NCBI GenBank assembly: GCA_964016885.1
Contig: OZ024766.1
Location: 21,452,001-21,516,000, forward strand
DNA: 64,000 nt
Origin: Eledone cirrhosa
Taxonomy: Eukaryota
Reading direction: 5' to 3'
Each line of letters opens with the position of its first letter. Position 1 is the stretch's first letter. Positions 24,201-27,200 of this stretch are shown one piece after another. The translations under genes and the position numbers were made by a program. The notes beneath the pieces are model-generated. The model searched no databases, was not told the origin of the DNA, and saw only the letters and a program-made list of their open reading frames with translations.

Positions 24201-27200
24201 CAGCCCTCACTGTAAAGTGGTCGTGGAGGTGCCACGGCAAAAAAGCACCCAGCACTCACTGTAAAGTGGTCGTGGAGGTGCCACAGCAAAAAAAGCACCC
24301 AGCACTCACTGTAAAGTGGTCGTGGAGGTGCCACGGCAAAAAAAGCACGCAGCCCTCACTGTAAAGTGGTCGTGGAGGTGCCACGGCAAAAAAAGCACGC
24401 AGCCCTCACTGTAAATGAGGTTGGTGTTACGAAGGGCATCCAGCTGTAGAAATCAAGCCAAAATCAGTTCCCGCCCCACCCTTGCAAGCAGGGAAAAGCG
24501 GACGTAAAATGAAATGATGAATGATGATGATGACCCTCCCAAACTATAACAATATCGGTTTCAACACACGTTTTCAGATAAAGAATCTTGCTAAACAAAT
24601 TCAGAAACGAAATACATATATATATATGTAAGGGTTAAAATACTAGAGTGTGTTGGAGTTAAACACCCTCTTCGTATTATAGAAATGACAGTAGAAGATA
24701 TAGCTCAATGTAGTTAAACAGAGCTGAAGAATTATGAAAGTAAAACAAAGAAGCCTTCAATACATCAAAAGTCTTTATTAGCCAACAATGTTTCGTCCTA
24801 TTAAGGACTCATCAGGGCAATTAAAACAACAAGAAGTAATATCGGCAGATACAAGCCGGAAGCTCCGAAGAATATGCCCTGATGAGTCCTTAATAGGACA
24901 AAACATTGTCGGCTAATAAAGACTTTTGATGTATTGAAGGCTTCTTTGTTTTACTCTCTTAATTCTTCGGCTCTGTTTAACTACATTGAGCTATACCTTT
25001 TACTGTCATTGATTGCCCTGATGAGTCCTTAATAGGACGAACATTGTCGGCTAATAAAAACTTTTGATGTATTAAAGGATTCTTTGTTTTACTCTCTTAA
25101 TTCTTCGGCTCTGTTTAACTGCATTGAGCTATACCTTCTACTGTCATTGATTGCCCTGATGAGTCCTTAATAGGACGAACATTGTCGGCTAATAAAAACT
25201 TTTGATGTATTGAAGGCTTCTTTGTTTTACTTTCATAATTCTTCGGCTCTGTTTAACTGCATTGAGCTATACCTTTTACTGTCATTTCTATAATACGAAG
25301 AGGGTGTTTAACTCCAACACGCTCCAGTATTTTAACCCTTATATATATATATGTATATATATATGTGTGTTAGTGTGGATGTATATATATATATATGTAT
25401 ATGTGTGTGTGTGTGTGTATATATTATTATGTTTATATATCTATTCACATAATTTCTCATTTTTTTTCTTTTCTCGCTCCTTCCCTCCCTCCCTCTCACA
25501 CTTTGCCCTCTTTTCATCCCCCCTTCACCACCACAACTACTACCATCACCAACACCACTACCACTACCATCACCACTACCACTACCATCACCACCACAAC
25601 TACCACTACCATCACCACCACAACTACCACTACCATCACCACTACCACTACCATCACCAACACCACCACCATCACCACCACACCATACCCCCCACACCAC
25701 CACCATCACCATACCATACCACCATCCCTACCACCACCAACATCCCTACCCCTAACTCTTACCCCCCCTCTCTGCTAATACTACTACCAACCCCACCACT
25801 CCACCACCACCACCACCATCACTCCTACTCCCCCCCACAACCACCACCGCTCACACTACTACCAACCCCACCAACCCCACCACTCCACCACCACCACCAC
25901 CACAACCACCACCACCACCACCAACATAACCATCACTCCTAACACCTACTCCCCCCCATCACCACCACCGCTCACACTACTACCAACCCCACCACTCCAC
26001 CACCAACACAACCACCACCACCACCACATACCCCCTCTAACTCCTACCACCACCACCGCTAACACCACTACCACCATCCCTACCCCTAACTCCTACCCCC
26101 CCACTAATACTACTACCAACCAACACTAACACCACCACCACCATCCCTACCACCACAACCACCACCACCACACCATACCACCACCACAACCAACACTAAC
26201 ACCACCACCACCACCACCACCACCAACCACCATCTCCCCCACCACCACCACCACCACACCATACCACCACCACCACCACCACACCATACCACCCACCACA
26301 CCATACCACCACCACCACCGCCAACACCACTACTACCCCACCCCCCACCACCACCACCACCACACCATACCACCACACCATACCACCACCACCGCCAACA
26401 CCACTACTACCCCACCCCGCCCACCCACCCCCTCAGGTAGTCAACCTCCTCAACGACCTCTACACGGTGTTCGACAACATCATCGGCCACTACGACGTCT
26501 ACAAAGTGGAGACAATCGGGGACGCGTACATGGTGGTCAGCGGCCTGCCCAAGACCAACGGCATCCTGCACGCGGGGGAGGCGGCCTCCATGTCGCTGCA
26601 CCTCCTCGACGCCATCCGCAGGTTCCGCATAAGGCACCGGCCGCGCGACACCCTCAAGCTGCGCATCGGGCTGCACTCGGGGTCGTGCGTGTCCGGCGTG
26701 GTGGGCCAGAAGATGCCCAGGTACTGCCTCTTTGGTGACACGGTCAACACGGCCTCCCGGATGGAGTCGACTGGACAGCGTAAGTCTTCTTACTTCTCTC
26801 TCTCTTTTTATATATATGTATATATATATATATATAGGAACGAGTAAGACCCCCGACGGCAGAGCTCAAGCCGTTTCGACGGCTAATTCAGAATTAGCCG
26901 TCGAAACGGCTTGAGCTCAGCCGTCGGGGTCTTACTGGTTCCTATTACCCACTCTACTACCCCAAGTATTGAGTACTTTGGTGCGTTATGGTCCACCTGG
27001 TTCCTTACCACATTTCCTTCGTTATATATATATATATATATATACATATATATGTATATATATATATATGTATATATTGGCCTTGCAATCGAAAGGTTGT
27101 GAGTTGAATTCTCAGACCGGGTGATGTGTTGTTTCCTTGAGCAAGACACTTTATTTCACATTGCTCCAGTTTACTCAGCTGTAGAAATGAGATGATAGGG

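What the first reader, a model, noticed from the sequence alone, without database searches (positions are those of the whole stretch)
24620..25345. Retrozyme-like cassette in an rGC intron: three tandem sense hammerheads broken, the antisense one intact
Seen: ~200-bp outer inverted arms enclose one minus-strand hammerhead with a perfect core and three plus-strand copies at 138-139-bp spacing. Each plus copy has a damaged GAAA (AAAA, GAA, GAA). Established: short tandem hammerhead-delimited units are the hallmark of non-LTR retrozymes. Inference: loss of core function only in the pre-mRNA orientation may reflect selection against cleaving the host transcript. The two GAA copies could equally be one duplicated mutation or a homopolymer error.
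Basis: partly seen in the sequence, partly recalled or inferred. Interest (0 to 1): 0.75.

Follow-up and report, generated by a model that had tools for sequence, protein, structure and literature searches.

The report
Decayed Penelope transposon ends in intron
The four self-cutting-RNA motifs in this guanylyl cyclase intron are end pieces of an abundant Penelope-type jumping gene, and the damage to the three forward copies likely comes from two ordinary mutations, one of them duplicated, rather than from selection to protect the host RNA.

Summary
In detail: one antisense and three sense hammerheads (spacing 139, 138) lie in an rGC intron, the sense ones with damaged GAAA. But this is not a retrozyme. 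All four motifs are the terminal repeat (pLTR) of an autonomous Penelope-like element with Hydra-clade motifs, with about 2,400 hammerhead copies in this genome, often in head-to-head pairs. The 138-bp junction occurs only here.

The damage is at most two events. One is a CpG transition, seen in 47 copies; the mirror change at the same CpG occurs in 62. The other is an A deletion shared by two duplicated units.

Strong selection is contradicted: in a UBA1 intron the sense copy is intact and the antisense one broken. Weak selection on tandem sense copies is not excluded: solo intronic copies ran 5 antisense to 1 sense, and this is the only visibly intronic tandem of five. Reads could not confirm the bases.

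Odd: the four copies are mosaics of three subfamilies. The scan earlier reported Penelope-mobilised retrozyme arrays elsewhere in this genome, with other unit lengths (unchecked); none resembles this sequence.

The parts
23352..23476 (+). rGC exon upstream of the element (start of the cyclase domain)
   Evidence: Pfam Guanylate_cyc 1-31, E 9e-5; AG before 23352 and GT at 23477
23477..26436 (+). Host intron, 2960 nt, GT..AG
24612..24629 (.). Left (TA)n target microsatellite
   Evidence: 29 of 29 other loci aligned end in TA at the same element end
24630..24876 (-). Inverted, 5'-truncated pLTR copy with the long end; S1-type upstream of the hammerhead, GUU-type downstream
   Evidence: 95% to family copies over about 265 nt; haplotypes
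24777..24821 (-). Type I hammerhead, core intact, GUU triplet, two-pair stem III with near-palindromic ACAUUGU
   Evidence: Rfam RF00163 29.1 bits; monomer active fold -4.0 vs alternative hairpin -10.6 kcal/mol
24875..25010 (+). Sense copy 1, S1-type, truncated 4 nt before the core; G12 to A at 24900 (CpG to CpA)
   Evidence: the same change in 47 copies genome-wide
25009..25148 (+). Sense copy 2, S2-type, one A of GAAA missing; joined to copy 1 through a TT microhomology
   Evidence: junction found only here
25147..25340 (+). Sense copy 3, long end; same junction and same A deletion as copy 2; S2-type with a GUU-type patch
   Evidence: deletion pattern in 5 copies genome-wide, 2 of them here
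25341..25364 (.). Right (TA)n target microsatellite
26437..26790 (+). rGC exon downstream of the element (cyclase domain; end approximate)
   Evidence: Pfam Guanylate_cyc 28-142, E 5e-45

Best explanation
The feature is a cluster of truncated terminal repeats of an abundant Penelope-like retrotransposon sitting in a (TA)n run of an rGC intron, likely built by repeated insertion and local recombination, and its dead sense hammerheads likely reflect two neutral mutations rather than selection. Shown: identity with the pLTR, the family's head-to-head habit, the unique junction, the subfamily mosaic and the genome-wide counts. Inferred order of events: (1) an S1-type head-to-head pair (minus arm plus copy 1) inserted; (2) later copies of other subfamilies landed on the same (TA)n ends and joined by homology or microhomology; (3) unequal exchange duplicated 138 bp, copying the junction and the A deletion; (4) conversion between the inverted arms mixed variants; (5) copy 1 lost G12 by methyl-CpG deamination, probably faster in gene bodies. 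The cassette is predicted to do nothing as a ribozyme. In the pre-mRNA it would fold as a long hairpin.
For: [quoted passage not shown] 2340 core matches; 31 head-to-head rows among fetched loci. Junction found only at this locus. G12A in 47 copies against 62 for the opposite-strand change at the same CpG (p=0.18). UBA1 intron: sense copy intact with GUC, 86 nt before the acceptor; antisense partner G12A. G12A copies lie antisense in two cadherin introns. The minus arm here also carries a private CpG-to-CpA change outside the core (0 of 69 other copies). L194 and L195 show a copy of another subfamily placed behind the (TA)n tail of an existing copy. CpG-decayed copies are dense on this small chromosome (0.40 per Mb vs 0.01-0.03 on C1-C3); methylation marks gene bodies in octopus (PMC9476566, abstract).
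Against: Two independent core hits among the sense copies are unlikely at any one locus (G12A 2.0%, deletion 0.2% of copies). G12A is somewhat commoner than a control CpG in the tail (47 of 2340 vs 13 of 1149, p=0.07). Solo intronic copies ran 5 antisense to 1 sense (p=0.22). The UBA1 counter-example is a solo sense copy, expected to be weak anyway. The other four short tandems have no visible host exons, and three have both cores intact. No read piece bridged this locus's junctions. The order of events is not unique.
Confidence: 0.8

Rival explanations
1. Weak hammerheads become active only as tandem dimers, so a sense tandem in an intron would cut the pre-mRNA and persists only if its cores are dead. 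Solo sense copies are tolerated.
For: Of five short same-strand tandems in the genome, the one visibly intronic and sense is fully dead, while three of the other four are fully intact with no host exons seen. Such motifs cleaved only as dimers or trimers in vitro (PMC4209133, parts 1-2 of 4). Solo intronic copies 5 antisense to 1 sense; two pairs with the sense copy dead.
Against: n=1, picked after the fact. Both lesions are common mutation types. Each sense unit keeps an AATAAA (24915, 25053, 25191), which could explain an antisense skew without cleavage. The upstream antisense arm is predicted to sequester copy 1 as it emerges, or copy 3 in the full RNA. A lizard PLE hammerhead needed its protein to cleave (PMC11167929), and 8 of 9 Xenopus dimers did not cleave (preprint 2026.07.22.740005).
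Confidence: 0.12
2. The tandem or its lesions are an assembly or polishing artefact mixing reads of paralogous subfamilies.
For: All four copies are subfamily mosaics; long/long ends in (TA)n were seen in 0 of 31 other pair rows; no piece bridged either junction in three runs of one sample.
Against: The deletion pattern occurs in only 3 other copies of about 2400, so two independent homopolymer slips are improbable. Mixed-subfamily tandems exist elsewhere. The runs may be another individual or species, and the tool warns that holes prove nothing.
Confidence: 0.05
3. A true non-LTR retrozyme: a 138-nt circular RNA copied round and round and inserted as a concatemer.
For: Unit boundaries fall at the 5' edge of hammerhead stem I; retrozymes are reported to derive from pLTRs (preprint 2026.07.22.740005).
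Against: The junction exists nowhere else. Units differ at subfamily-diagnostic sites (copy 2 carries 6 S2 states, copy 1 S1 states), whereas one circle gives identical units. 0 of 3 cores is complete.
Confidence: 0.03

Closest known systems
Hydra-clade Penelope-like elements (Craig et al. 2021, PMC8557442; section 11 and passages read)
   Same: Single ORF with RT and C-terminal GIY-YIG; DKT motif; CxCX5C linker; CxxC and CxH around the conserved E and N; hammerhead in the pLTR; insertion into (TA)n; partial tandems and inverted 5'-truncated copies.
   Different: Unit 4.7 kb against generally under 3 kb; RWR in place of RWK; about 1.75-kb 3' UTR; the two end classes differ by about 105 nt against a 30-40-bp tail. 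No tree was built.
PLE hammerheads (Cervera and de la Pena 2014, PMC4209133; parts 1-2 of 4 read)
   Same: Type I motif with short palindromic stem III, mostly single truncated copies, and opposite-strand pairs about 100-700 bp apart.
   Different: Here three same-strand copies at 138-139 nt, all damaged; activity untested.
Metazoan non-LTR retrozymes (PMC7229834, passages; preprint 10.64898/2026.07.22.740005, parts 1-3 of 5)
   Same: Short tandem units each holding a type I hammerhead; pLTR origin.
   Different: One locus only, non-identical units from different subfamilies, no complete core, 138 nt against 150-450 bp, no RNA evidence.

Membership tests
Penelope-like element, Hydra clade | RT plus C-terminal GIY-YIG endonuclease in one ORF | tested here: met
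   L032, L106, L108, L112 ORFs; GIY-YIG E 1.5e-4. RT motifs read by eye (recalled); Pfam RVT_1 only weakly on a homologue (E 0.004).
Penelope-like element, Hydra clade | DKT, CxCX5C linker, CxxC and CxH flanking E and N, no CCHH | tested here: met
   Motifs read in the translations against section 11 of PMC8557442; RWK appears as RWR.
Penelope-like element, Hydra clade | Hammerhead in pLTR; partial tandems and inverted 5'-truncated copies | tested here: met
   pLTR-to-pLTR 4.67-4.76 kb; 31 head-to-head rows.
Penelope-like element, Hydra clade | Insertion into (TA)n | tested here: met
Penelope-like element, Hydra clade | Generally under 3 kb | tested here: not met
   4.7 kb; a stated tendency, not a strict criterion.
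Penelope-like element, Hydra clade | Placement in the RT phylogeny | not tested
   No named reference sequences were held; homologues are unnamed or hypothetical.
Non-LTR retrozyme | [quoted passage not shown] | tested here: not met
   0 of 3 sense units complete.
Non-LTR retrozyme | Dispersed family of arrays with the same monomer | tested here: not met
   Junction only at this locus; the four other short tandems have spacings of 41, 126, 299 and 321.
Non-LTR retrozyme | Units copied from one monomer | tested here: not met
   Units carry S1, S2 and GUU-type diagnostic states.
Non-LTR retrozyme | Linear and circular monomer RNA; self-cleavage | not testable with these tools
   No RNA run listed.

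The most novel reading that the evidence does not exclude
This is a retrozyme caught at birth and killed: three pLTR hammerheads brought into dimer range in the sense strand of a host intron, surviving only because both founder cores were dead. Host genes would then filter which Penelope ends can become retrozymes, through tandem-specific selection measurable on this 2,400-copy family.
Probability: 0.12. Interest if true: 0.55.

Novelty: new member of a known kind. Interest (0 to 1): 0.2.

Why it matters
As it stands it is transposon debris of a described kind. It matters modestly as a resource: a young, roughly 2,400-copy hammerhead family with built-in sense/antisense pairs and a core CpG whose two strands give a lethal and a milder change allows a clean test of whether intronic ribozymes are selected against. 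Gene-body CpG decay is a confounder that would mimic such selection. If the tandem-specific filter were true, it would explain where retrozymes can arise.

Tried and rejected
Whole-window Rfam scan: swamped by (TA)n hits to miRNA models.
MITE with terminal inverted repeats: rejected, since the arms are retroelement 3' ends with 5' truncation at scattered points (0 to 1000 or more nt in 143 copies).
Reads: no RNA holder listed. Two lays were dominated by paralogues and no listed piece bridged the locus junctions; inconclusive.
ESM Atlas gave no answer; PDB had no useful hit for the ORF or for two host exons.
The first diagnostic-site table used uninformative offsets and was redone.
Host-gene search at 20 loci picked for an intact core found none with exons on both sides, so it gave no orientation data. 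Pooled with the decayed sets this is 9 of 40 vs 0 of 20 (p=0.023), but the third set was screened more leniently and copy ages differ, so it is only suggestive.
Literature: searches listed no paper on orientation bias of PLE hammerheads in introns; supplements were not read, and the bioRxiv ones are closed.

Full report
Observation. The window holds four hammerhead cores: 24815 on the minus strand and 24879, 25018 and 25156 on the plus strand. Copy 1 has G12 replaced by A; copies 2 and 3 lack one A of GAAA. That these changes abolish catalysis is recalled hammerhead chemistry, not tested. The minus copy has an intact core but a GUU triplet, a common subfamily state (21 of 35 copies). Rfam scores are real but below gathering. 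The host is a plus-strand receptor guanylyl cyclase, intron 23477-26436. The genome is 3.0 Gb; an octopod host is inferred from a named Argonauta homologue and recalled repeat types.

What it is. The last 193 bp gave 2656 first-look candidates, 40 scored. [quoted passage not shown] Three of six loci examined (L106, L107, L112) show a plus-strand pLTR, ORF and second pLTR 4.67-4.76 kb apart. The protein motifs match the Hydra clade as described in PMC8557442 section 11; no tree was built. The core pattern matches 2340 places. Head-to-head pairs are the family's habit: 31 rows among fetched loci (two rows are one pair; the set is enriched for broken cores by my choice of loci), 24 with one long and one short end and 20 with both cores intact. 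So the 'outer inverted arms' are the ordinary inverted pLTR.

Not a retrozyme. The 138-bp junction matches only the two places in this locus (a gapped pattern found one of them). Same-strand pairs within 400 nt exist at five loci, each with its own spacing. Against 128 other copies, copy 1 carries S1 states, copy 2 carries six S2 states, copy 3 is S2 with a GUU-type patch matching the minus arm, and the minus arm is S1 upstream and GUU-type downstream. One variant is shared only by the minus arm and copy 2 (0 of 69 others). A concatemer copied from one circle would have identical units. L194 and L195 show a different subfamily sitting behind the (TA)n tail of an earlier copy, which supports repeated landing. 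Both arms here have the long end in (TA)n, seen in 0 of 31 rows, consistent with secondary events. PMC11167929 (section 3 part 2 and passages) proposes nicking of AT-rich DNA, including the element's own pLTR.

The lesions. Copies 2 and 3 share the junction, the deletion and two S2 states, so the deletion is one event; its pattern occurs in only three other copies, which argues against two separate homopolymer errors. G12A is a CpG transition found in 47 copies. The opposite-strand change at the same CpG, which leaves GAAA intact, occurs in 62 (p=0.18). A control CpG in the tail gave 13 of 1149, slightly lower (p=0.07). Decayed copies are far denser on this small chromosome (total copies per chromosome were not counted). 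The abstract of PMC9476566 reports gene-body methylation in octopus and its absence from transposons overall, so faster decay of intronic copies is an inference.

Orientation test. I fetched 10 kb on each side of 60 loci: 20 best hits with intact cores, 20 with G12A or the deletion, 20 with C11.1U. For the first 40, 450 of 4265 candidate ORFs went to Pfam. For the last 20, candidates were read by eye and 39 ORFs, six of them from earlier loci, went to Pfam. Host exons on both sides were found at 0, 4 and 5 loci. Against selection: in UBA1 the sense copy is intact with GUC, 86 nt before the acceptor, and the antisense partner is G12A; two cadherin introns hold antisense G12A copies; L214/215 holds a sense copy with intact GAAA (gene recalled as USP24-like; no library hit, canonical splice sites). 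For selection: L157/158 has sense G12A with antisense intact; L234/235 has its sense copy truncated into the core (gene without library hit); solo copies are 5 antisense to 1 sense (p=0.22). A rule that sense copies must be dead is refuted; a weak bias is neither shown nor excluded, and the AATAAA in each unit could cause it without cleavage.

The tandem question. Related motifs cleaved only weakly and only as dimers (PMC4209133), and the monomer here is predicted to prefer an inactive hairpin, so solo counter-examples do not test tandems. Of the four other short tandems, three have both cores intact. Around them, 84 of the 120 best-scoring of 1018 candidate ORFs gave only transposon domains. 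This locus is the only one of five that is visibly intronic, and it is dead. That is one case, chosen after the fact. In the pre-mRNA the antisense arm, made first, is predicted to pair with copy 1 as it emerges and with copy 3 in the full RNA.

Reads. No RNA run was listed. Contigs and RAD reads were dominated by paralogues and no listed piece bridged a junction, so the bases are unconfirmed and an assembly origin of the mosaic is not excluded.

Earlier scan notes. Eight notes describe two-armed, Penelope-mobilised retrozyme arrays of 310-478 nt in this genome (unchecked). None resembles this sequence or lies near it. They prompted the end-class tally.

Verdict. An ordinary, somewhat tangled remnant of a Hydra-like Penelope family; interest 0.2. 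The most novel open reading, tandem-specific selection on a nascent retrozyme, gets probability 0.12.

Noticed in passing
L179:9056-9101 and L179/L180 junction (G000:C27 near 19.728 Mb): Intact GUC hammerhead plus AATAAA in sense orientation 86 nt before a splice acceptor of UBA1; antisense partner broken.
   Followed up: partly
G000:C27, lists: CpG-decayed copies are over ten times denser per Mb on this 22-Mb chromosome than on C1-C3; the family may serve as a methylation clock.
   Followed up: partly
window 24612-25358: Predicted 181-bp near-perfect duplex in the rGC pre-mRNA, a likely A-to-I editing substrate.
   Followed up: no
L106, L107, L108, L112: Near full-length Hydra-like PLEs, 4.7 kb, with an Asn-rich linker insert and 1.75-kb 3' UTR; those seen carry a frameshift or stop; two fixed 3' ends about 105 nt apart.
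   Followed up: partly
L193: A 126-nt tandem with two intact hammerheads, built with short internal duplications; the best natural substrate for a dimer assay.
   Followed up: partly
L194, L195: Copies of different subfamilies in tandem, the second behind the (TA)n tail of the first.
   Followed up: partly
window 38467, 44910, 49108, 61074, 61396, 61515: Six further related CTGATGA motifs of a different repeat, possibly degenerate hammerheads of another element.
   Followed up: no
window 7634-8395: 109-bp tandem (7 copies) of what looks like a LINE ORF2 fragment inside an rGC intron.
   Followed up: no
G000:C4:77739389-77771322: Four C11.1U copies about 10-12 kb apart on one strand, probably a segmental tandem duplication.
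   Followed up: no
L206, L253: ORFs of other Penelope-like families with similar motifs next to copies of this one.
   Followed up: no
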